From the IMG/VR virus record IMGVR_UViG_3300021400_000130, positions 89,614 through 153,613 of that record: a stretch of DNA of 64,000 nt. One strand, 5' to 3'. Below are positions 8,061-24,639 of this stretch, one piece after another. Below the pieces are notes generated by a model. It did not search any database, was not told the origin of the DNA, and worked only from the letters and a program-made list of their open reading frames with translations. Each line of letters begins with the position of its first letter. Position 1 is the stretch's first letter. The translations under genes and the position numbers were made by a program. Source of the stretch: a virus (Duplodnaviria > Caudoviricetes).

Positions 8061-9740
8061 TTGATAACAATTGAGGAAAAATTAAATAAGAAGATACCTG
8101 GTATATCTTCTTTATATATAAAGTTTGATTATAACAAAGACATTGTTGAAGCACTGAAAGAGAGCGTTACTGTTGGAGAGTTTGATAGAAAGACTTTAAC
8201 ATGGGAAGTTCCGGCTTCTGATCTAGCAAAGATTATCGACCGTCTTTCTGTTTTTGATTCTGTTGATCTTACTCTTCTTTCTGATGTTGAAGAAAAGAAA
8301 CAAAAGGAACCAACACTTCATTCTTTCAAGACTAAACCTTTCCCTTATCAAGAAGAAGGAATAAAGTATGGTCTTCAGCATGATAACTGGTTGTTACTTG
8401 ATGCTCCTGGTCTTGGTAAAACTCTTCAGATGCTTTATCTTGCGCTTGAGTTGAAGAAGGCAGGAAAGATTGAGCACTGTTTGATTATTTGTGGAGTAAA
8501 TACACTTAAGTTTAACTGGAAGAAAGAAATTGAAAAGCATACAGACGAACAGTGCTATATTCTCGGACAGCGTATTAGTAAGAACGGAAAGTTTTCTATC
8601 GGAAGTGTTAGCGACAGAGTTAAAGACCTTAACAGTAAAATTAAAGAATTCTTTGTTGTAACCAACATTGAAACTTTACGAGATAACGATGTTGTTAAAG
8701 GAATAAACAAAGGAGCAAATAAGTTTGATTTAGTTGTTGTTGATGAGGTACACAGATGTAAGAATCCACAATCACAACAAGGAAAGAACTTTTTGAAACT
8801 TACAGGACCAAAATATAAAGTAGCTCTGACTGGAACTCTATTGTTAAATAGCCCACTTGATGCTTATGTTCCTCTTAAGTGGATTGGTAGAGAAAGATGC
8901 AGTTTCAGTAACTTCAAATATTATTATTGTAACTATACGGGATTTTTCAATAATGAGTTTATAGGTTATAGAAATATTGATACCTTGAAAGAACAACTTT
9001 CGAGCTGTTCTCTTCGTAGAACAAAAGATCTTCTTGACCTGCCACCTAAAACAATTATTCCAGAAATAATTGAAATGAATACAGCACAGTCTACATTCTA
9101 TTCAAATATTAAAGAAGGAATTGTTGCACAAGTCGATAAAGTTGATATGTCAACAGCAAGCATTCTGTCAATGGTTGCCAGACTAAGACAGGCTACAGAG
9201 TGCCCTTCTGTTTTAACAACGGAGCCTATCAAATCAGAGAAAGTACTTAGAGCTATAGACTTAGTAGAACAAATTGTTTCTAATAATGAGAAAGTTGTAG
9301 TATTTAGTACTTTCAAAGAAACACTTAATATATTGAAAGAAGAACTTAAGCAGTATAATCCTTTGCTGTGTACAGGCGATGTTAAAGATTCTGAAATCAG
9401 TAACAATATAACAATGTTTCAGAATGATGATACTCATATGGTTATGCTTGCTACAACAAGTAAAATGGGTACGGGTGTTACTCTTAACAGAGCAAGTCAC
9501 GCAATTTTTGTTAGCAATCCGTGGACGGCAGCAGATTGTCAACAGTGTGAAGATAGAATACACCGTATTGGTTCAAAAGATCCTGTTTTTATTCATTATT
9601 TAATATGCAATGGAACAATAGATCAAAGAGTCGATGAGCTAGTTCACGATAAAGGTGCTATCAGTGATTATGTTATTGACGATAAGATTGAAGAAAGATC
9701 TATTGACAGTCTGCGAAAATATATTTGTGAGCTAACTTAG
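8061..9740 (+). CDS. SNF2-family (SF2) helicase/ATPase
   Basis: PYQEEG, DAPGLGKT, VVVDEVH, LTGT, GTGVTL, QCEDRIHRIG motifs. Confidence 0.9.
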   Translation: MITIEEKLNKKIPGISSLYIKFDYNKDIVEALKESVTVGEFDRKTLTWEVPASDLAKIIDRLSVFDSVDLTLLSDVEEKKQKEPTLHSFKTKPFPYQEEGIKYGLQHDNWLLLDAPGLGKTLQMLYLALELKKAGKIEHCLIICGVNTLKFNWKKEIEKHTDEQCYILGQRISKNGKFSIGSVSDRVKDLNSKIKEFFVVTNIETLRDNDVVKGINKGANKFDLVVVDEVHRCKNPQSQQGKNFLKLTGPKYKVALTGTLLLNSPLDAYVPLKWIGRERCSFSNFKYYYCNYTGFFNNEFIGYRNIDTLKEQLSSCSLRRTKDLLDLPPKTIIPEIIEMNTAQSTFYSNIKEGIVAQVDKVDMSTASILSMVARLRQATECPSVLTTEPIKSEKVLRAIDLVEQIVSNNEKVVVFSTFKETLNILKEELKQYNPLLCTGDVKDSEISNNITMFQNDDTHMVMLATTSKMGTGVTLNRASHAIFVSNPWTAADCQQCEDRIHRIGSKDPVFIHYLICNGTIDQRVDELVHDKGAISDYVIDDKIEERSIDSLRKYICELT

Positions 9741-13690: not shown

Positions 13691-14503
13691 GTGTTAGACG
13701 AATACAGACAAGCCTATACGCAGTCTGCTAACCAAATACCTGATTGGAAGAAAGTTAATCGTAATGAATTATGTAGAAGGTATAAAGAAGCAGAACGAGA
13801 TGGTGAAACAGAATTACTGAGTTCCTATATAAGCGCTATTGTTCTAAACTTCTGGCATGTTTTGACAAAAACATATAACAAACAACCTGTTAAAGTATTG
13901 TCAGAAGAAGATTGTTATGAATGCTTGATTGAATCAATACTTTTTGTTTTAGGGCGGGCTGCTTGGGAAGATCCTACTCAGAGTATATACAAAGATGAAA
14001 AAGGTCCAGAAAAAGCAATCAATCTAACTTTTCAACAGAGCATAACAAATCTTTTTGTCGCTGATCAAAGACATAAAAGGAAAGCTATGAGCAATGCTTT
14101 GTCTCTTGATAATACACTGAAAGATGAAGAAGATTCACAAACATTTGTTTCTTTGTTAGCAAAGGATGAATTATCTCCTTTGCTAGAAAATCTGTTTTGG
14201 GGTAAAAAGATAAAACAATATTTTCAAAACAATGACTTTATTGCTGCATTTGTTCTAGATCTTTTAATCAAAGATCCTTCTTTGATTGAAAACAAAGATG
14301 AGAAGTATATTATCAATTCAAGAAAGATTGCAAAACAATTGAATGAACTTCCTGATAATTATGCTCGTGAGTTTTCAAAAGAGTACGGTATCTCTGTTGA
14401 AAAAGTTGAATCTGTTCTTAGTTATCTATATAATGTAAATAGTAGAAATATTGATAAGATATTATATCCTCTGATACAGGATATAAAGAAAGAGTGTGAG
14501 TAG
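13691..14503 (+). CDS. Hypothetical protein, possibly sigma-factor-like/regulatory
   Basis: Helical; RHKRKA..ALSLD resembles sigma region 2/3 junction; heads replication operon. Confidence 0.4.
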   Translation: MLDEYRQAYTQSANQIPDWKKVNRNELCRRYKEAERDGETELLSSYISAIVLNFWHVLTKTYNKQPVKVLSEEDCYECLIESILFVLGRAAWEDPTQSIYKDEKGPEKAINLTFQQSITNLFVADQRHKRKAMSNALSLDNTLKDEEDSQTFVSLLAKDELSPLLENLFWGKKIKQYFQNNDFIAAFVLDLLIKDPSLIENKDEKYIINSRKIAKQLNELPDNYAREFSKEYGISVEKVESVLSYLYNVNSRNIDKILYPLIQDIKKECE

Positions 14504-15220
14504 TTGATTACCAGTAATGATTGCTGGATGAAGGATACTTGTAAAAAATTCTTAAATCAGAGTAAAGAGTGTGAATGTAGAGATAACGATGTGTTCTGCA
14601 TAAAGTTGTTTAAGTTACAACAGCTTTATGACCTGTCTTTACTTACTGATAAACAGCGTATCCGTATTCCTCTAAGAATTGATGCAGATGGGACAGATCG
14701 ACAAGCGTTTGAGCGTTTAAGCGCTATAGAGTCTGACGGAGTTAAACATTTTGTAGATTCAGGAAGTAACTTATATATTTATTCTTCTAATGTGGGAAAT
14801 GGAAAGACGACTTGGGCGATAAGACTTATACAGTCTTATCTAACAAATGTCTGGTATAAGTGTGACATTGATTGTAAAGCACTTTTTGTCAGTGTTCCTA
14901 AATACTTAATCTCAATAAAGGAGAATATTTCAGAACCAAGTGAGTATGCACAACATATTAAGAAGTATGTATACTCTGCAGATATAGTTGTGTTTGACGA
15001 TATTGCAACAAAATCTGCAACAGCGTTTGAACACGAAATGCTTTTTAATATAATTGATGCTCGTGTTAATCTTGGTAAATCAAATATTTTTACTTCTAAT
15101 ATGGATTATACAGGTCTTGTTAATACAGTTGGTGAGCGCATAGCAAGTAGAATTTTTAATACTTCGGAAAAAATTAGATTTGACGGAAAAGATAAAAGAG
15201 CTCTGGGGGTGAGTATTTGA
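14504..15220 (+). CDS. DnaC/IstB-like helicase loader ATPase
   Basis: N-terminal Cys cluster; VGNGKTT Walker A; VVFDDI Walker B; IFTSN; RIASRI. Confidence 0.85.
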   Translation: MITSNDCWMKDTCKKFLNQSKECECRDNDVFCIKLFKLQQLYDLSLLTDKQRIRIPLRIDADGTDRQAFERLSAIESDGVKHFVDSGSNLYIYSSNVGNGKTTWAIRLIQSYLTNVWYKCDIDCKALFVSVPKYLISIKENISEPSEYAQHIKKYVYSADIVVFDDIATKSATAFEHEMLFNIIDARVNLGKSNIFTSNMDYTGLVNTVGERIASRIFNTSEKIRFDGKDKRALGVSI

Positions 15221-18379: not shown

Positions 18380-19990
18380 ATGTCCCTATGGGGTGAAGAT
18401 TTTGAAATAAAACCTGTCAAGAAGGAAGTTAAGAAAGTTACAACAAAAATTAACTCTCCAAAGAAGCCAAAGGTTGAAACTCAGAAAGTTATTAGCTCTA
18501 AGAGTGTTTCTGTATATGATAAACTACAGTTAATCTATGCAGAAGTAGACCGTATCCTTGGCAGGTATAAAGAGAATACTCAAGTTATAAGGACAAAACA
18601 AGATCTTGTTGATTATATTGATGCCTCCATCAGTAATGGTGCAATTGCAATCGACACCGAGACCAACAATAGTCTTGATCCGATTACTTGCCTTCTGATG
18701 GGGGCATGTATTTATACTCCCGGTAAAAAGAGCGCCTATATTCCCGTAAATCATGTAGATTATGTTTCTCATAATAAGTTAGAAAATCAGCTTACAGAAG
18801 AAGAAATAAAAGAACAATTTGATAGGCTGAAAAATACTAAAATCATTATGCACAACGGCAAGTTTGACTATGAAGTTATCAAGTGCACTTGTGGTTGTGT
18901 TTTAGATATATACTGGGATACAGAAATTGCAGCCCGTATCCTTGATGAGAATGAATTAGCAGCTCTAAAGAAACAGTACATACTACATATTGATAGTACT
19001 CAAGAGAAGTACGATATTGAGCATTTATTCCAAGGTATTGAATACGAAGTTGTTGACCCTGATGTTTTCGCACTATATGCAGCTACTGATGCTCTAATTA
19101 CATATCGGTTATATGAATGGCAGAAGGAACAATTCAGTAAGCCTGGAAATGAAAATCTTTATAGTGTGTTCATGAATGTTGAGATGCCAGTTGTTCAAGT
19201 TTCTGCAGAGATGGAACTTCTTGGTGTTGAAATTGACAAGGATTATGCGTCAAGATTAAGTACTAAATATCACAAGAAAGTTGAAGCAGTTGATAAAGAG
19301 ATTGACGAAGAACTTTCTAAATATTCTGATAAGATTGCTGCATGGAGACAAACAAAAGAAGCTAATTATAAAGAGTTAAATTCTAAACAAAATAAATCAG
19401 GAGAGTATACTTACAAGAAGTCAAAGAATGAACAACTTGCAGATCCTCCTCAGTTAAATAGCCCAACACAGTTAGCAATTTTGTTGTATGATATATTACA
19501 AGTTCCTATACAAGATAAGAAAGCGCCAAGAGGAACAGGAGAAGAAATTCTCAAGAAAATAAATATTCCTCTTTGTGATCTTATTCTCAAGAAAAGAGGG
19601 CTTGAGAAGTTAATAGGAACATATATTGATAAGATTCCTGCTTGTGTAAGTCCGAAAGATAACAGACTTCATGCTCATTTCAATCAACTAGGGGCAGGTA
19701 CTGGACGATTTAGTTCTAGCGACCCTAATCTTCAAAATATCCCTTCAAAGAATAAAGAAATTAGATTGATGTTTAGAGCTGGGCATACTGAACGAGAAGT
19801 TTCTAGTGAATATAACAGCTATACATTTAGTATGAATGAAGAAGTTCTTACGAGTACGGGTTGGAAAGCTGTTTCCGAACTAGTACCCAACGATGTACTT
19901 GTTTCTGATGAAGGAGAACAGGTTATTAGCACAGTAATGAAGATTGATAACTCTATTGTAGCATATGTTTCAGAGGAGGTGATTGAGTGA
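18380..19990 (+). CDS. polA: Family A DNA polymerase, N-terminal part (3'-5' exonuclease, thumb, first palm segment) ending in a Hint/intein-like tail
   Basis: IDTET, HNGKFD, YAATDA exo motifs; LNSPTQL; TGRFSSSDPNLQNIP; ends before motif A. Confidence 0.92.
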   Translation: MSLWGEDFEIKPVKKEVKKVTTKINSPKKPKVETQKVISSKSVSVYDKLQLIYAEVDRILGRYKENTQVIRTKQDLVDYIDASISNGAIAIDTETNNSLDPITCLLMGACIYTPGKKSAYIPVNHVDYVSHNKLENQLTEEEIKEQFDRLKNTKIIMHNGKFDYEVIKCTCGCVLDIYWDTEIAARILDENELAALKKQYILHIDSTQEKYDIEHLFQGIEYEVVDPDVFALYAATDALITYRLYEWQKEQFSKPGNENLYSVFMNVEMPVVQVSAEMELLGVEIDKDYASRLSTKYHKKVEAVDKEIDEELSKYSDKIAAWRQTKEANYKELNSKQNKSGEYTYKKSKNEQLADPPQLNSPTQLAILLYDILQVPIQDKKAPRGTGEEILKKINIPLCDLILKKRGLEKLIGTYIDKIPACVSPKDNRLHAHFNQLGAGTGRFSSSDPNLQNIPSKNKEIRLMFRAGHTEREVSSEYNSYTFSMNEEVLTSTGWKAVSELVPNDVLVSDEGEQVISTVMKIDNSIVAYVSEEVIE

Positions 19991-21072
19991 GTAAAGTCAA
20001 AGCCCGAAAGAAAAATATTTTTTGTGGAGCTGACTTTTCTTAGTCTCAACAAGAGCCTCGACTCTTGTCAGCTTATTCTCAAGATGAGAGAATGATAACT
20101 GCATATAAAGAAAATAAAGATTTATATGCAACTATTGCTTCTGGTGTATATAAGAATGATTACTGGGACAATATGGAGCATCATCAAGACGGGTCTCCTA
20201 ATCCGGATGGTAAGAAAAGAAGAAGTAATTGTAAAAGTCTTCTATTAGGAATTATGTACGGAAGAGGCGCTCCCAGTATTGCGGAACAGATACACTCTTC
20301 TGTTGAGGAAGCTCAGAAGATTATAAATGATTTTTATTCTCAGTTTCCAAAAGTGAAAGCGTGGACGGATAAAACAGAGCATGATGCTAAGGTTACAGGA
20401 TATGTAGAAGACCTTTGGGGTAGAAGAAGAAGACTACCAGACATTCTTTTACCGAAGTATACAATAAAAACAAAACAAGCGTCTACAGAATTTAATCCGT
20501 TACTTTATACATTAGGAAAAGTAAATAACTCCTCACAAGATCTTGTTGAAAATTATAGGAAGAAACTTGACAAAGTAAGGTCAAGAAAAGATTATCAAAC
20601 AATACAACAGGAAGCAGAAAAGAATGGTGTTACAATTGTAGACAACGGTGCTTTTATAAGTCAGGCTGAACGACAGTGTGTAAACGCTCGTATTCAGGGC
20701 GGAGCAGCTTCGATGACAAAAGTGTGCATGAGAAAGATTTTTGATGATAAAGAATTGAATGATCTACAGGCACACTTAGTATTACAGATACATGATGAAG
20801 TAATTGTAGAGTGTCCCGAAGAAAATGCAGATAAAGTTATTGATAGGTTAACTTATGTAATGAAGAATTCCGTTACTGATAAAGTAAATGTACCTTTCAA
20901 GTGTGACGGATACAAAGTAACAAGATGGTATGAAGATGACTTTGGAGATATTTTAAGAGAAAAATATCAAGCGTTGTTAGATGAAGGAAAAACAGAATCT
21001 CAAGCGTTTGATATTATGCTTGAAGAAAATAGCGAACTGACGAAAGAAGAGCTTTCTTCTTTCTTAAGTTGA
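19987..21072 (+). CDS. polA: Family A DNA polymerase, C-terminal part (motifs A, B, C) with in-frame TAG at 20041-20043
   Basis: GAGGAGGT SD, GTG overlapping upstream stop; VSKVKARKKNIFCGADFS*SQQEPR; motif B RSNCKSLLLGIMYG; motif C QIHDEV. The ORF-track start at 20065 omits the catalytic Asp. Confidence 0.85.
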
Positions 21073-21097: not shown

Positions 21098-21158
21098 ATA
21101 TTGTATATAAAGGAAGTGATTGCGTGCTGTAGCAAGTGTACACTTTAGGAGGTTATTG

Positions 21159-21410
21159 ATGATTATAGATAACATATTCATTAGAGAGGTATTTGGACTT
21201 TCAGCTTCAGTCTTTGTCCTTCTCTCTATGATGATTAAATCAAATGACCGTAAGGGTAATATTAGAATGAGATTACTGAACTTAACAGGAAGTGTCCTGA
21301 TGATAATCTACGGATTTTGGATCGGTTCTTTTAGTACAATATTTCTAAATATTATCTGTTTGGTCGCACATATTTATTATTTAATAACTTTGTTTAGAAT
21401 AAAAGACTGA
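21159..21410 (+). CDS. Small 3-TM membrane protein (YgjV/PQ-loop-like)
   Basis: AGGAGG SD; G..ASVFVLLS..MRLLNLTGSVLMIIYG..LN pattern. Confidence 0.6.
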   Translation: MIIDNIFIREVFGLSASVFVLLSMMIKSNDRKGNIRMRLLNLTGSVLMIIYGFWIGSFSTIFLNIICLVAHIYYLITLFRIKD

Positions 21411-21414
21411 TTTA

Positions 21415-21478
21415 GTGGGCCGGGTTGTTCGAAAGTCCCACCAACCCGAACCTTACAATAAAATAAAAATAATAGGAG
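21415..21478 (+). promoter_or_regulatory. Structured 5' leader of yhhQ-like gene; candidate preQ1-I-like riboswitch/pseudoknot
   Basis: CGGGTTG/CAACCCG stem, loop TTCG..CCAC, GTGGG/CCCAC crossing pair, A-rich tail to AGGAG. Confidence 0.45.
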
Positions 21479-21487
21479 TAATTTACT

Positions 21488-22252
21488 ATGATTGAAAAAT
21501 TAAAAAGAGAATGGGAAGAAACAAAAGTACTTTTTAACTGTATGCCAACAATTCCGTTTGCATTTCTTGTTTGCTCTCTGATTGCAATGAACTTTCTTGC
21601 AAATAGAGGAGGAGCTATTGGTCCTGTAGCATTTGATTGCGGTATTGTTGTTTCTTGGGTAGTGTTCCTTGCTTCTGACATGCTTGTTAAGAGGTTTGGT
21701 GCTAAAGCAGCAATTAAGATTAATATTGCAGCAATTATTCTTCAGTTAGTTTCAGTTGGTCTAATGACTCTTGGCGCAGTTATTCCTTGGGCAACTTATG
21801 GTTCTACTCCTGAAGAGTCTGCAGTATTTACTATGATTTTCAAAGCGGCTCCTTGGCCTCTGTTTGCTAGTGCAGGTGCTGCCCTGATTTCAAATGTTAT
21901 TAACTCTCTTATTTCTAAAGGCATTCTTTTGAGATTTAAAAATCGTACATCAGGTAAAGCGTATGTAACAGCCTCTTGGATTTCTACTACTGCTGGTCAG
22001 TTCTTTGACAATTTCTTGTTTGGTCTGTTTTTCAGTATCTGGCAGCCTTGGTTCCCTTGTTACGGAACATGGAAGGCTATTCCAATGCTAATTCCAATGG
22101 CCTTTGTCGGTGCACTTCTTGAACTCCTGTGTCAAGTAATCTTCACTCCGGTAGGTTTTAAGATTGCTGAGACCTGGAGAAAGAAAGGTGTAGGACAAGA
22201 ATACGTAGATATGGTAGCTGAAGCTCAAGAAGTAAATACAAATCTTGCCTAA
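21488..22252 (+). CDS. yhhQ: VUT/YhhQ-family queuosine-precursor (preQ0/preQ1) transporter
   Basis: Multi-TM; MNFLAN, G....W.VFLASDMLVKRFG, STTAGQFFDN motifs. Confidence 0.8.
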   Translation: MIEKLKREWEETKVLFNCMPTIPFAFLVCSLIAMNFLANRGGAIGPVAFDCGIVVSWVVFLASDMLVKRFGAKAAIKINIAAIILQLVSVGLMTLGAVIPWATYGSTPEESAVFTMIFKAAPWPLFASAGAALISNVINSLISKGILLRFKNRTSGKAYVTASWISTTAGQFFDNFLFGLFFSIWQPWFPCYGTWKAIPMLIPMAFVGALLELLCQVIFTPVGFKIAETWRKKGVGQEYVDMVAEAQEVNTNLA

Positions 22253-22291
22253 TCACATTAATAGAAGAAGGATCTTTTCAAAACTACGTAT

Positions 22292-22912
22292 ATGAATATT
22301 CTATGTTTTGGCGATTCTAATACTTGGGGATTTGATGCGGATAATCTGTGTCGATTCCCCAAGGAGGTCCGTTGGACCGGTAAACTATGTGAGCATCTTG
22401 GTCCGGAATATCAAGTATCTGAATTCGGAATATGTGACATGACATTTGGGACAGACGATCCTTTTTATAAATCATGTAACGGAATTCAAAATATTATTCC
22501 AGCAATAAGAGCAAACTCTCCTCTAGATTATGTTATTGTATCTCTTGGCATAAATGATTGTAAGAGATATCATTGTAATAGTGTAGAGAAGATTTTAGAT
22601 GATGCTGGAAGATTAATATATCTAATACAAGGATATTCCGACCTTAATACAGAAAGAGCACAGGTGATTGTCTGTGGTCAATGTGTTCCTACTATCGACA
22701 TTCCTCGTTGTTATCCGAGAGAATTTGATAGTGCTTCTATTTGCAAGATATATGAATTAAACAGAGAACTACGAAGATTTTGTAAGACGATTGACGTTCC
22801 TTTTATTGATCCTCCTGGAGAAATGAAATTCTGTAAAGACGGAGGGCATTACTCTAAAGAAGGTCATGAAATTTTTGCAAGAAATGTTGCACAATATATA
22901 AAATCTTTGTAA
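22292..22912 (+). CDS. SGNH/GDSL hydrolase
   Basis: FGDSNTWG, LGIND, DGGH catalytic blocks. Confidence 0.9.
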   Translation: MNILCFGDSNTWGFDADNLCRFPKEVRWTGKLCEHLGPEYQVSEFGICDMTFGTDDPFYKSCNGIQNIIPAIRANSPLDYVIVSLGINDCKRYHCNSVEKILDDAGRLIYLIQGYSDLNTERAQVIVCGQCVPTIDIPRCYPREFDSASICKIYELNRELRRFCKTIDVPFIDPPGEMKFCKDGGHYSKEGHEIFARNVAQYIKSL

Positions 22913-22946
22913 AGATTACTCATCAATAATCTCCTAAAGTGTATAG

Positions 22947-22975
22947 TTGAATTTGAATTGTTTTTATATTATACT
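22947..22975 (+). promoter_or_regulatory. Sigma-A-like phage promoter
   Basis: AG-TTGAAT-N17-TATACT. Confidence 0.7.
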
Positions 22976-23006
22976 ATAGAACAAATACGAGCAAAGGATC
23001 TTTGGA

Positions 23007-23930
23007 ATGAAAAACGAAAAAACAATCTACTATTTTTCTGGTATGTCTTACCAGGATATGAAGAGACGGTTGAATGTTGATCAGCTATTTTCTCAGTGGC
23101 ACGAGCGTAAAGGAATTGAATCTCTGATTGAGTATAAGAAGGAGCATCCAGAGCATACAGGTCGTATTATGGTGGACTCTGGATCCTTTACTGCTTATAC
23201 AAAAGGCGTCCATATTGATATTGATGACTATCTGAAGTTTATTGATAAGGTTGGAGACTATGTTACTGTGTTTGTTGCAGTTGATGATGTTCCCGACCCA
23301 ATGAACATGGATTATACAAAAGCGGAAACTACTTGGAAGAATTATCTTTATATGGTTGAAAGAATCAGACCAGAGTTACGCGATAAGCTCATTCCGGTAT
23401 TTCACTACGGCGAGGACTTCAAGTGGCTCCGTAATATGTTGGAGTATACACATCCTGACGGGTCTCATATTAAGTATATTGGACTTGCTATTTCTCTTGA
23501 AGGAACAAAAAGAGTTAGAGTTAACTGGGGTAGAGAGTGTATGCGAGTTATCGCAGAAAGTTCTAATCCGAATGTAATGACTCATGCTTTTGGTGTTGGA
23601 GTTAAATCTGTTCTTGATAATATTACAGTAACTTCTACGGATGCTACAAGCTGGGTAAAAAGAGCGGCTTACGGAATGATTAGTATTGATGACCAGTCGA
23701 TTCATGTCTCAGAAGTTATGAAAAATCGTGCAGACGACAGATATCTTGGTCAGCAAAATGTAGCACTTCAAGAAGAAGTAATGAAGCGTATTAAAGAAAA
23801 AGGATTTACTTTTGAAGAGTTAGAGCAAGATTCAGGTAAACGAGCAGAGTTTAATATTCTTGATACTCTTGACTGGGTAGCAAAACTTGAACCGCACAAC
23901 ACAACTTTTAAGAACGGATTAGGGTGGTAA
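23007..23930 (+). CDS. dpdA: tRNA-guanine transglycosylase-like protein, probable DpdA-type DNA 7-deazaguanine insertion enzyme
   Basis: MVDSGSFT, VDDVP, IPVFHYGE, YIGL, HAFG, STDATSW motifs of TGT/DpdA barrel; downstream of yhhQ. Confidence 0.7.
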   Translation: MKNEKTIYYFSGMSYQDMKRRLNVDQLFSQWHERKGIESLIEYKKEHPEHTGRIMVDSGSFTAYTKGVHIDIDDYLKFIDKVGDYVTVFVAVDDVPDPMNMDYTKAETTWKNYLYMVERIRPELRDKLIPVFHYGEDFKWLRNMLEYTHPDGSHIKYIGLAISLEGTKRVRVNWGRECMRVIAESSNPNVMTHAFGVGVKSVLDNITVTSTDATSWVKRAAYGMISIDDQSIHVSEVMKNRADDRYLGQQNVALQEEVMKRIKEKGFTFEELEQDSGKRAEFNILDTLDWVAKLEPHNTTFKNGLGW

Positions 23931-23931
23931 T

Positions 23932-24639
23932 ATGTCAGTACTTATTACAGGAACTAGTTATGGTGTAGGAAGAGCAACTGCTCTTAAGTTTATGGAAGAG
24001 GGTTATTCTGTAATCGGGCTTGATTGGAAGCCTGCTACTATTCCTCTTTCCAATAGTTATATTCATCATCAATGTGATGTAAGTGATTTCAATTCTCTTC
24101 CTGATCTGATTAACATTGAATATATTGTTAATAATGCAGGAATTGTAACCCCGAAGGCTAATGCTATTGCTGTAAACCTCATTGGCTATATGAATATTAT
24201 AAAGAAGTATAGCGGAGACCCCGCACTGAAATCAATTGTTCAGATTGGTAGTACAGCTTCTATCAAAGGTTATGACAATATGGAATATTGTTGCTCTCAG
24301 GGAGGTCGTGATGCTCTTACTAAGTGGGCCGCGAACAATCTAGGTCACGATAGTCGTCACGTATTAGTTAATTCTTTGAATATTGATGGCATTGTTCCCG
24401 CTCCTGAAGGTAGTCTTGATGGAACGGCACTAGAGCCAGAGCTCTACGCAGACCCCGAACTTATGAAGGCAATTCAAGACCTGAGTATTACAGGTCGTCT
24501 GTCTACTGTTCATGATATTGCAGAATGGATATTCTTTGTACTTACTAAGAACAGAATTATGACAGGTGAAATTATTAAAATTGACGGCGAACTTATGAAC
24601 TGTTATAAGTTTATCCCCTATCCTGGATGGGATACTTGA
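23932..24639 (+). CDS. Short-chain dehydrogenase/reductase
   Basis: LITGTSYGVG, CDVSD, VNNAG, IGSTAS, YCCSQ (YxxxK Lys replaced by Gln), TGEIIKIDG. Confidence 0.88.
   Translation: MSVLITGTSYGVGRATALKFMEEGYSVIGLDWKPATIPLSNSYIHHQCDVSDFNSLPDLINIEYIVNNAGIVTPKANAIAVNLIGYMNIIKKYSGDPALKSIVQIGSTASIKGYDNMEYCCSQGGRDALTKWAANNLGHDSRHVLVNSLNIDGIVPAPEGSLDGTALEPELYADPELMKAIQDLSITGRLSTVHDIAEWIFFVLTKNRIMTGEIIKIDGELMNCYKFIPYPGWDT

What the first reader, a model, noticed from the sequence alone, without database searches (positions are those of the whole stretch)
20026..20061. TCT-TAG-TCT inside catalytic motif A: candidate programmed ribosomal stop-hop in an essential polymerase
Seen: GGA GCT GAC TTT TCT TAG TCT CAA CAA GAG CCT CGA = GADFS*SQQEPR. 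Removing exactly 6 nt restores canonical DFSQQEPR. The stop is flanked by identical Ser codons, and motifs B and C downstream are intact. TAG is a real terminator elsewhere (9738, 14501, 28382), so this is not genome-wide recoding. Simple readthrough would put two extra residues in the active site, and restarting at 20065 loses the catalytic Asp. Known: matched take-off/landing codons around a stop define stop-hopping and T4 gene 60 bypassing. Inferred: a minimal 6-nt bypass gating polymerase synthesis, possibly sensing RF1 or tRNA-Ser status. Alternative: TCTTAG is a micro-intron or collapsed group I intron (exon ends in U, insert ends in G).
Basis: partly seen in the sequence, partly recalled or inferred. 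Interest (0 to 1): 0.92.

Follow-up and report, generated by a model that had tools for sequence, protein, structure and literature searches.

The report
Six-base ribosome hop in phage polymerase
The only DNA polymerase gene of this 154-kb gut phage has a stop codon plus three bases inserted into its catalytic motif. Comparison with about 35 related versions indicates that ribosomes hop over the insert, which would be a natural, very short form of the rare translational bypassing known from phage T4 gene 60.

Summary
At 20038-20046 the sequence reads TCT TAG TCT inside motif A of a family A polymerase, and removing 6 nt gives the canonical DFSQQEPR.

Relatives decide the reading. Every unsplit relative has the plain motif. 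Relatives that carry the same mobile cassette have a stop directly after the Ser codon, or in one group after the Glu codon. The stop is followed by 0-7 extra bases and then a codon that matches the first. The cassette consists of an intein-like tail on gene part 1, an optional homing endonuclease, a strong ribosome-binding site and a 17-19-codon leader.

I found 37 distinct versions, with hop lengths of +5 to +10 in all three frame relations. TAG, TGA and TAA are all used as the stop, and the TAG-recoded phage in the set uses TGA. In every case a hop restores the exact motif. A covarying RNA hairpin runs from the start codon to the take-off site.

Readthrough, an intron, a pseudogene and an assembly error fit poorly.

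The best explanation is a programmed +6 stop-hop that belongs to a homing-endonuclease cassette. This is a structural analogue of T4 gene 60/MobA, not a homologue. There is no experimental proof.

This scan had already flagged the same phenomenon on other DNA (e1-1067941, e1-5357855).

The parts
18380..19990 (+). ORF1: PolA N-part (3'-5' exonuclease plus the polymerase domain up to IRLMF) followed by a cassette-encoded C-terminal extension. The stop TGA is at 19988-19990.
   Evidence: Pfam DNA_pol_A_exo1 and DNA_pol_A profile positions 19-159; translation.
19775..20046 (+). The whole inserted cassette: it replaces the parental DNA from just after IRLMF up to and including the landing codon.
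   Evidence: DNA comparison with near-identical unsplit alleles. Identity stops after IRLMF and resumes at the resume codon: L008 vs L005, L042 vs L040, L037 and the window vs L038.
19775..19987 (+). C-terminal extension (CTE) of ORF1, about 71 aa, an all-beta Hint/intein-like half domain with no conserved splicing residues.
   Evidence: Homologous in all cassette lineages (A3). AF2 model has pLDDT 78 and six strands. The best PDB fold matches are inteins, at weak E-values: gp41-1 at 8.7e-3, DnaB inteins and hedgehog Hint. No Pfam or PHROG hit.
19973..19983 (+). Shine-Dalgarno sequence GAGGAGGTGAT of ORF2.
   Evidence: Read. The same strong SD precedes the leader in nearly all of the 32 Ser-type pattern-search versions.
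19987..20043 (+). ORF2 leader of 18 codons: GTG start overlapping the ORF1 stop (GTGA), a basic N-terminal extension MSKVKARKK (19987-20013), the cassette's own copy of the motif A strand NIFCGADFS (20014-20040), then TAG.
   Evidence: The leader is 17-19 codons long in 30 of the 32 Ser-type pattern-search versions; for the other two my script called no start or a doubtful one.
20038..20040 (+). Take-off codon TCT (the Ser of DFS).
   Evidence: table of versions.
20041..20043 (+). TAG stop in the A site at take-off; it is the whole 3-nt gap between take-off and landing codons.
   Evidence: The stop is TAG in 25, TGA in 4 and TAA in 3 of the 32 pattern-search versions. The TAG-recoded phage L010/L047 uses TGA.
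20044..20046 (+). Landing codon TCT, identical to the take-off codon.
   Evidence: The landing triplet matches the take-off codon at 3 of 3 positions in 9 versions, 2 of 3 in 21 and 1 of 3 in 4, out of 34. Triplets shifted by 1-3 nt mostly match at 0-1 positions.
20047..21072 (+). Resumed reading frame: QQEPR and the rest of the palm and fingers, with motifs B and C. The stop TGA is at 21070-21072.
   Evidence: Pfam DNA_pol_A profile positions 160-381. dN/dS is 0.03-0.045 against relatives.
19985..20045 (+). RNA hairpin spanning the leader: 19993-19999 pairs with 20031-20037, 19988-19991 with 20039-20042, and 19985-19986 with 20044-20045. The start codon is in the 5' strand. Take-off codon, stop and landing codon are in the 3' strand.
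   Evidence: MFE -20.3 kcal/mol, z -5.04. The pair next to GUC/GAC covaries and is paired in 32 of 34 versions: A-U 15, G-C 7, U-A 5, C-G 3, G.U 2. It is not significant in cassette lineages without a gap.

Best explanation
The TAG is the gap of a programmed translational bypass, a +6 stop-hop. ORF2 is translated from GTG 19987, with a strong Shine-Dalgarno sequence and a start that overlaps the ORF1 stop. After 18 codons the peptidyl-tRNA-Ser sits on TCT 20038-20040 with TAG in the A site. Before release factor 1 can act, the tRNA unpairs, the mRNA slides 6 nt, the tRNA re-pairs with TCT 20044-20046, and decoding resumes at CAA 20047. The product is ...NIFCGADFSQQEPR..., a normal motif A on the C-terminal half of a two-piece PolA. 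The insert is the 3' end of a mobile homing-endonuclease cassette that invaded the polymerase gene. The cassette has an intein-like tail on ORF1, an endonuclease gene (lost in this genome), a new RBS with a short N-terminal extension, its own copy of the motif A strand, and the gap. By analogy with T4 mobA/gene 60, the gap probably breaks the endonuclease target in the conserved motif A DNA. A conserved hairpin links the ORF2 start region to the take-off site. It may drive or tune the hop, or couple ORF2 initiation to upstream translation. What is shown: the sequence design, its conservation and covariation, the cassette boundaries, and purifying selection. What is inferred: the hop itself, its efficiency, the role of the hairpin, and the immunity function.
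For: 1. Association. In 66 loci with a readable motif A, the distance from the Asp codon to the Glu codon is 15 nt in all unsplit genes. It exceeds 15 nt (21-25 nt) only in genes that carry the cassette.
2. Frame. Gaps give net shifts of +5, +6, +7, +8, +9 and +10, that is all three frame relations, so readthrough cannot be the common mechanism.
3. Stop. A stop always directly follows the take-off codon. TAG, TGA and TAA are all used, and the TAG=Gln recoded phage L010/L047 uses TGA.
4. Matching. The triplet just 5' of the resume codon matches the take-off codon at 2 or more of 3 positions in 30 of 34 versions, while shifted control triplets do not. When take-off is TCG, the landing codon ends in G in 5 of 6 versions, against 1 of 28 for other take-off codons (Fisher p = 1.3e-4).
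5. Moved site. In the cassettes that carry an HNH endonuclease the site has moved three codons downstream to GAA|TGA CT|GAA. The codons are again matched and the product is again DFSQQEPR.
6. Selection. The downstream ORF has dN/dS of 0.03-0.045. The leader keeps the polymerase residues VG[SA]D[FY]S in the pattern-search versions and in the unbiased homology set.
7. Need. The genome is complete, with direct terminal repeats and a CheckV estimate of 100%. Profile searches for family A, family B and Pol III alpha (DnaE) polymerases found only this PolA.
8. Mobility. Gap-bearing and unsplit alleles are interspersed at 1-5% divergence on the tree, and identity to unsplit alleles resumes exactly at the resume codon. 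Manning and Atkins describe the same architecture for the gene 60 element (10.1101/2022.08.31.505936).
9. Hairpin. It has z -5.0 here and a covarying pair. In the Glu-type cassettes a different 12-13-bp helix ends exactly at the moved take-off codon. Cassette lineages without a gap have no significant hairpin.
10. Plausibility. Ribosomes stalled at stop codons are known to hop to codons that match the P-site anticodon (PMC6815119; PMC5009743).
Against: There is no protein, RNA or ribosome data, so everything is comparative. Stop-hops in E. coli test constructs are, from memory of Weiss et al. 1987 (not checked here), only about 1% efficient. A replicative polymerase would need much more than that, and no stimulator has been proven. 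Matched codons could partly be a relic of how the insert arose, and the versions are not phylogenetically independent. Four of 34 landing codons match at only one position (TCC to GCT or ACT), and L046 is ambiguous. The pattern scans required a stop after Ser, so only the landing match and the gap length are unbiased in that subset. The unbiased homology set holds about 9 distinct gap types. The hairpin sequesters the start codon and may serve initiation control only. In this genome the hop is in frame, so readthrough is not excluded for this one member.
Confidence: 0.76

Rival explanations
1. Termination and three pieces. ORF2 really ends at TAG and releases an 18-residue peptide. The C-part is made separately by reinitiation near 20044-20065. 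The polymerase then either works with the Asp-bearing strand supplied as a free peptide, or works without it.
For: A TTG lies at 20065, and a TTG follows the stop directly in the L001/L008 type. The gene is already split once and functions in pieces in relatives such as L016/L051.
Against: No start codon or SD is conserved after the gap across versions. A leader peptide would have no reason to keep VG[SA]D[FY]S. The matched landing codon and the exact restoration of motif spacing would be coincidences. Loss of the motif A Asp abolishes catalysis in family A polymerases (established knowledge).
Confidence: 0.08
2. Stop-codon readthrough. In this genome the TAG is decoded by a near-cognate or suppressor tRNA, giving DFS-X-S-QQEPR with two extra residues.
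For: Here the gap is in frame. TAG is a rare terminator in this genome, ending 7 of 157 long plus-strand ORFs.
Against: No suppressor tRNA is encoded, and TAG terminates other genes. Twenty-four of the 37 distinct versions (21 Ser-type and all 3 Glu-type) are out of frame (+5, +7, +8, +10), and the closest relatives L037/L057 use +8 at another codon. Readthrough would change the Asp-to-Glu spacing, which is invariant at 15 nt in all unsplit relatives.
Confidence: 0.05
3. Decaying or non-functional gene. The cassette broke the polymerase, and these phages rely on another polymerase.
For: Homing endonucleases do damage genes. The LAGLIDADG gene of L001 is itself broken by TAA.
Against: dN/dS is 0.03-0.045 downstream of the stop. 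There are 37 distinct versions, with 300-390-codon open frames wherever a contig end or a likely further interruption does not cut them short. Gap sequences evolve while the design is kept. Profile searches found no other polymerase in a complete genome that encodes its own helicase and primase next to the gene; earlier notes of this scan, not checked here, also list clamp and clamp-loader genes further downstream.
Confidence: 0.04
4. Removal at the nucleic-acid level. The 6 nt are taken out of the mRNA (micro-intron or editing), or out of a fraction of genomes by slippage between the TCT repeats.
For: A group I-like intron occupies exactly this codon junction in L052. The insert is flanked by direct 3-nt repeats.
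Against: A 5-10-nt insert cannot form a ribozyme, and Rfam finds nothing in the window. No such processing is known in bacteria or phages. A stop codon right after the first repeat would not be required. Many independent assemblies retain the gap.
Confidence: 0.03

Closest known systems
Phage T4 gene 60 50-nt translational bypass within the MobA homing-endonuclease element (Manning and Atkins, bioRxiv 10.1101/2022.08.31.505936)
   Same: An essential replication-related gene is split by a free-standing homing endonuclease. The cassette adds a C-terminal extension to part 1 and an N-terminal extension plus its own copy of the replaced host segment to part 2. It ends at the landing codon. [quoted passage not shown] A stop follows take-off. 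The take-off site shifts to a neighbouring codon in some clades. The endonuclease is replaced or lost while the gap stays. A few lineages are split without a gap, and one has been re-fused.
   Different: A different gene (PolA motif A, not the topoisomerase Toprim domain). There is no detectable homology. The gap is 2-7 nt rather than about 50 nt, so no take-off stem-loop or mini-SD can lie inside it. Take-off is at codon 17-19 rather than 46. The conserved structure is a hairpin 5' of and including the take-off site. The endonucleases are LAGLIDADG, GIY-YIG or HNH. The extension on part 1 is intein-like. Hosts are probably Gram-positive gut and rumen bacteria, an inference from the nearest named relatives, which are Streptococcus, Clostridium and Bacillus phages.
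Synthetic 'stop-hops' in E. coli (Weiss et al. 1987, as reviewed in PMC5009743)
   Same: Matched codons flank a stop, so that 9 nt specify one amino acid. This is exactly the TCT TAG TCT of this window.
   Different: Those were low-efficiency events in test constructs. The 2016 review states that no natural in-frame stop hopping was known. Here the design is conserved in an essential gene, together with a leader and a hairpin.
Mitochondrial bypass elements ('byps') of Magnusiomyces capitatus (cited in PMC5009743)
   Same: Short inserts in coding sequence are skipped by ribosomes. Take-off and landing codons match with some tolerance. The elements are mobile.
   Different: Byps are 27-55 nt long, sit in yeast mitochondria and are not tied to homing endonucleases or split genes (from the review and from memory; not tested here).
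Genes in pieces and fractured genes: Aeh1 nrdA/MobE, split gp43, and split inteins with an intervening endonuclease (PMC2677866)
   Same: A free-standing homing endonuclease lies between two halves of an essential enzyme gene. The tail of part 1 has an intein-like fold, and its best PDB match is gp41-1, a split intein.
   Different: No conserved splice-junction nucleophiles are present, so protein splicing is unlikely. Those systems have no coding gap or stop inside the downstream half.

Membership tests
Programmed translational bypassing (hopping), as a mechanism | Take-off and landing codons can be read by the same peptidyl-tRNA | tested here: met
   TCT/TCT in the window. Thirty of 34 Ser-type versions match at 2 or more of 3 positions, and the Glu type is GAA/GAA. 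Shifted control triplets do not match.
Programmed translational bypassing (hopping), as a mechanism | A stop or slow-to-decode codon lies immediately 3' of the take-off codon | tested here: met
   TAG at 20041. A stop follows take-off in all versions of the unbiased homology set. In the pattern-search set this feature was imposed by the query.
Programmed translational bypassing (hopping), as a mechanism | Conserved coding sequence on both sides, joined only if the gap is skipped, with gap length not constrained to triplets | tested here: met
   Hop lengths run from +5 to +10, and skipping restores D[FY]S[QAG]QEP in every version. dN/dS downstream is 0.03-0.045.
Programmed translational bypassing (hopping), as a mechanism | One polypeptide spans the gap without gap-encoded residues | not testable with these tools
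   This needs mass spectrometry or reporters.
Programmed translational bypassing (hopping), as a mechanism | Cis stimulators (mRNA structure, nascent peptide) | tested here: inconclusive
   A covarying hairpin ends at or includes the take-off site and is weak in lineages without a gap. A conserved basic leader is also present in lineages without a gap. Their function is not shown.
T4 gene 60 / MobA element (homologous family) | Insertion in the topoisomerase II large-subunit gene, a MobA HNH endonuclease, a gap of about 50 nt with a take-off stem-loop and a mini-SD | tested here: not met
   The host gene is PolA, the gap is 3 nt, and the endonucleases in relatives are LAGLIDADG, GIY-YIG or another HNH. 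This is an analogue, not a member.
Genome-wide stop-codon reassignment (TAG as sense) | Many in-frame TAGs in conserved genes, usually with a suppressor tRNA | tested here: not met
   Only 20041 and 14501 join long frames. No suppressor is among the 18 tRNAs. TAG ends ORFs at 9738 and 14501.
Split intein (protein trans-splicing) | Cys/Ser/Thr at intein position 1, a C-terminal Asn followed by Cys/Ser/Thr, and a complete Hint fold from the two halves | tested here: not met
   The tail of ORF1 has an intein-like beta fold. No nucleophile is conserved at its start (A3). The N-terminal extension of ORF2 is only about 9 residues and has no conserved splice-junction residues by eye.
Group I intron | A ribozyme core (P3-P9) of 200 nt or more, removed from the RNA | tested here: not met
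   The insert is 6 nt and Rfam finds no match in the window. True introns exist in relatives: RF00028 at 76.5 bits in L001, and an intron at this very junction in L052.

The most novel reading that the evidence does not exclude
Very short, hairpin-assisted ribosomal hops are a general device carried by homing-endonuclease cassettes. They let the cassettes break the DNA of invariant catalytic motifs in essential phage genes, making their own allele immune to cleavage, without breaking the protein. This polymerase family would then be the first natural, efficient stop-hop system. Its compact signal of roughly 60 nt (RBS-proximal strand, 17-19-codon leader, take-off codon, stop, 2-7-nt gap, landing codon) would be enough to program high-efficiency bypass in Gram-positive hosts.
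Probability: 0.45. Interest if true: 0.92.

Novelty: new variant of a known kind. Interest (0 to 1): 0.86.

Why it matters
Efficient translational bypassing has rested for decades on essentially one bacterial-virus example, T4 gene 60 and its homologues. The 2016 recoding review states that natural in-frame stop-hops were unknown, although shorter counterparts were long expected.

This cassette family offers dozens of natural variants. They differ in hop length, stop codon, codon pair, hairpin and endonuclease type, and all sit in an essential polymerase. That makes the rules of take-off, landing and mRNA-structure assistance directly testable with small reporters.

It also matters for annotation. 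Such polymerases are called as broken or three-piece genes, and in-frame cases can be mistaken for stop-codon recoding.

Finally, it extends the idea that selfish endonuclease cassettes carry their own fix for the damage they cause. Known fixes are introns, inteins and split-gene tails. This adds a minimal ribosomal hop.

Tried and rejected
- **No close phage match.** Megablast of the gene against GenBank phages found nothing.
- **TAG recoding rejected**.
- **Possible readthrough at 14501 considered.** Here a 270-aa ORF with no Pfam match (possibly a replication initiator, by position only) and a DnaC-like ORF lie in the same frame. I read them as two genes: there are no matched codons and the domains are separate.
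- **Split-intein trans-splicing rejected.** It would explain neither the stop nor the missing junction residues.
- **The earlier notes' downstream stem.** The stem GCTGAC 20029-34 with GTCAGC 20068-73, flagged in other notes of this scan, is not part of the minimum-energy fold, and its 3' arm is not conserved in relatives. The conserved structure is the 5' hairpin instead.
- **Failed or empty searches.** A search with the CTE alignment in IMG/VR failed for lack of a conserved block. The Glu-type pattern found nothing in IMG/VR, so those versions are known only from metagenome contigs.
- **Alignment unsuitable for pair counting.** The MAFFT alignment A4 misplaces a codon indel in the 18-codon leaders, so I counted the covarying pair with an anchored script rather than with the count of structure pairs.
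- **No complex prediction.** The leader is shorter than 30 residues, and a hop product would be an altered sequence.

Full report
**Observation**

The window shows GAC TTT TCT TAG TCT CAA CAA GAG CCT at 20032-20058, as reported. The frame is that of a 342-codon ORF ending at 21072, which carries polymerase motifs B and C.

ORF1 (18380-19990) holds the exonuclease and the polymerase domain up to IRLMF, then about 71 extra residues. Its TGA overlaps a GTG at 19987 that follows a strong Shine-Dalgarno sequence. The stop therefore lies only 18 codons into a second gene whose leader reads MSKVKARKKNIFCGADFS.

The window is part of a complete 153.6-kb virus record with direct terminal repeats. Profile searches for family A, family B and Pol III alpha polymerases found only this PolA.

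TAG is not reassigned in this genome:
- None of the 18 tRNA genes is a suppressor.
- Reading TAG as sense joins long frames only here and at 14501.
- TAG ends ORFs at 9738 and 14501.

**Relatives**

Named phages MS1, phiCTP1 and Flasso have D[FY]SQQEPR with no insert. A 4-kb gut-phage record (MT839691, 77-80% amino-acid identity) has the same split and the same in-frame TAG. Its flanking codons differ (TCG TAG TTG), and a LAGLIDADG endonuclease gene lies between the two halves.

Homology searches in IMG/VR and in metagenomes gave 80 further loci. In 66 loci with a readable motif A, the Asp-to-Glu distance is 15 nt in every unsplit gene. It is longer only in genes that carry the insertion.

The interrupted genes differ in the interruption:
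- TCT|TAG|TCT in the window (+6).
- TCG|TAG|TTG (+6).
- TCT|TGA G|TCA (+7), in a phage that reads TAG as Gln and even uses TAG for a Gln of QQEPR.
- TCG|TGA GT|TCG (+8).
- TCT|TAG T|TCC (+7).
- GAA|TGA CT|GAA (+8), three codons downstream, in the window's closest relatives L037/L057 (91-95% identical) and in L042/L045.

Two pattern scans of IMG/VR fixed only Asp, Phe or Tyr, Ser, a stop, and a QEP resume point up to 9 nt later. They raised the count to 32 distinct Ser-type versions in a PolA context. With L010, L046 and three Glu-type versions, the total is 37.

**Why a hop**

The shifts run from +5 to +10, so all three frame relations occur. No single readthrough or frameshift explains them. 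Skipping from the take-off codon to the triplet just before the resume codon restores the canonical motif in every case.

That landing triplet matches the take-off codon at three positions in 9 versions, at two in 21 and at one in 4, out of 34. Triplets shifted by 1-3 nt mostly match at 0-1 positions. When take-off is TCG, the landing codon ends in G in 5 of 6 versions, against 1 of 28 otherwise (p = 1.3e-4). This is what re-pairing of one tRNA would require. The versions are related, so these are not independent trials.

The stop is TAG in 25 versions, TGA in 4 and TAA in 3.

The downstream frame is under strong purifying selection, with dN/dS of 0.03-0.045 against both a gap-bearing and an unsplit relative. 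The leader keeps the polymerase residues VG[SA]D[FY]S.

Ribosomes stalled at stop codons are known to hop to codons matching the P-site anticodon (PMC6815119). Matched codons flanking a stop define the synthetic 'stop-hop' (PMC5009743).

**The cassette**

On a tree of the C-terminal parts, gap-bearing and unsplit alleles are interspersed at 1-5% divergence. The window (Ser-type), L037 (Glu-type) and L038 (unsplit) form one tight clade. The tree shown is the quick one, because the careful search did not finish.

DNA comparison with near-identical unsplit alleles shows that identity ends just after IRLMF and resumes exactly at the resume codon. The insert therefore comprises:
- the tail of ORF1,
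- the endonuclease where one is present,
- the RBS,
- a short N-terminal extension,
- a recoded copy of the motif A strand,
- the gap and the landing codon.

The endonuclease is LAGLIDADG, GIY-YIG or HNH in different lineages. It is absent in the window, L010 and L046. In this sample the HNH cassettes go with the Glu-type site and the other two with the Ser-type site.

Two lineages are split without a gap (L016/L051). One TGA=Trp lineage has the tail and the extension fused in frame (L020/54/55).

This is point for point the architecture that Manning and Atkins describe for the MobA/gene 60 element. That includes a shifted take-off codon, endonuclease replacement and loss, and rare loss of the gap. 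The gene, the sequences and the gap length differ.

A group I-like intron lies exactly between the Ser and Gln codons in L052. This shows that the junction is a recurrent target of mobile elements. By analogy with gene 60, the gap probably protects the cassette-bearing allele from cleavage. That is inference only.

The ORF1 tail folds as a six-stranded beta structure whose best PDB matches are inteins, at weak E-values. It has no conserved splice residues. It is most likely a dead Hint remnant that helps hold the two halves together.

**RNA structure**

The leader forms a hairpin with MFE -20.3 kcal/mol and z -5.0. In it, the start codon and codons 2-4 pair with the Asp, Phe and take-off codons and with part of the stop.

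Across versions, the base after GUC and the base before GAC form a pair in 32 of 34 cases, using all four Watson-Crick combinations. In about half of the versions the 3' strand extends through the landing codon and pairs with the 3' part of the SD.

In the Glu-type cassettes a different 12-13-bp helix ends exactly at the moved take-off codon, with z -3.9 and -5.0. Lineages without a gap show no significant hairpin, with z between -0.2 and +0.6.

The helix therefore tracks the hop site. It may re-form behind the ribosome and favour forward sliding, as proposed for mRNA pairing at the exit in gene 60 (10.1101/2024.12.09.627546, abstract seen). It may instead couple ORF2 initiation to upstream translation. 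Neither role has been tested.

The downstream stem proposed in other notes of this scan is not conserved.

**Verdict**

The most likely reading, at about 0.76, is a programmed +6 stop-hop that is part of a homing-endonuclease cassette. The rivals are a three-piece enzyme, readthrough in this in-frame member, a dead gene, and RNA-level removal. Each conflicts with several observations, but none is excluded without protein data.

I found no paper describing this in the searchable library. The library lacks most subscription journals.

Earlier notes of this scan report the same design on other phage DNA. I treat them as leads, not as evidence. Two of their versions, TCT|TAG G|TCA and TCG|TGA GT|TCG, also appear in my table.

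Noticed in passing
window 13691-15220: A 270-aa ORF with no Pfam match and a DnaC-like ORF (238 aa) lie in the same frame, separated only by TAG 14501 and followed at once by TTG. I read them as two genes (no matched codons), but this is the only other place in the genome where TAG separates two long open frames.
   Followed up: partly
L052:2395-2999: A relative's polymerase has two ORF-less group I-like introns: one in PNL|QNIP and one exactly between the Ser and Gln codons of motif A (the exon ends in T, the intron ends in G). The second is the junction where the window's gap sits. Rfam did not call either at gathering score.
   Followed up: partly
L001:1060-1293 and L001:1641-2675: MT839691 carries a group I intron (RF00028, 76.5 bits) in PNL|QNIP in addition to the cassette. 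Its LAGLIDADG gene is broken by an in-frame TAA, whereas the L008 copy is intact.
   Followed up: partly
L010/L047 and L020/L054/L055: Related phages use other genetic codes. L010/L047 read TAG as Gln, with TAG standing for a Gln of QQEPR. L020/54/55 read TGA as Trp, with TGA at the conserved Trp of the ORF1 tail. The TAG-recoded phage uses TGA as its hop stop.
   Followed up: partly
L016:1880-3010: In the lineage that is split without a gap, the polymerase is interrupted a second time inside motif B (between KSLLLG and IMYGRG) by about 1.1 kb that holds another 303-aa ORF. This may be an intron or a second cassette.
   Followed up: no
window 19775-19987: The extra tail of ORF1 models as a small beta domain whose nearest solved folds are inteins (gp41-1, DnaB inteins, hedgehog Hint), without splice-site residues. 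It looks like a dead intein half reused as a docking piece.
   Followed up: partly
window 21120-24639: Downstream of the polymerase lie a Vut_1/YhhQ-type transporter gene and an SGNH hydrolase gene (Pfam). Other first-stage notes read this region as a 7-deazaguanine cluster.
   Followed up: no
L037:1830-1850, L042, L045: In the HNH-type cassettes an SD-like AAGGAGGA lies inside the longer leader, directly 5' of the helix strand. No canonical start follows it. The only in-frame ATG is 9 codons upstream and has a weak SD.
   Followed up: no
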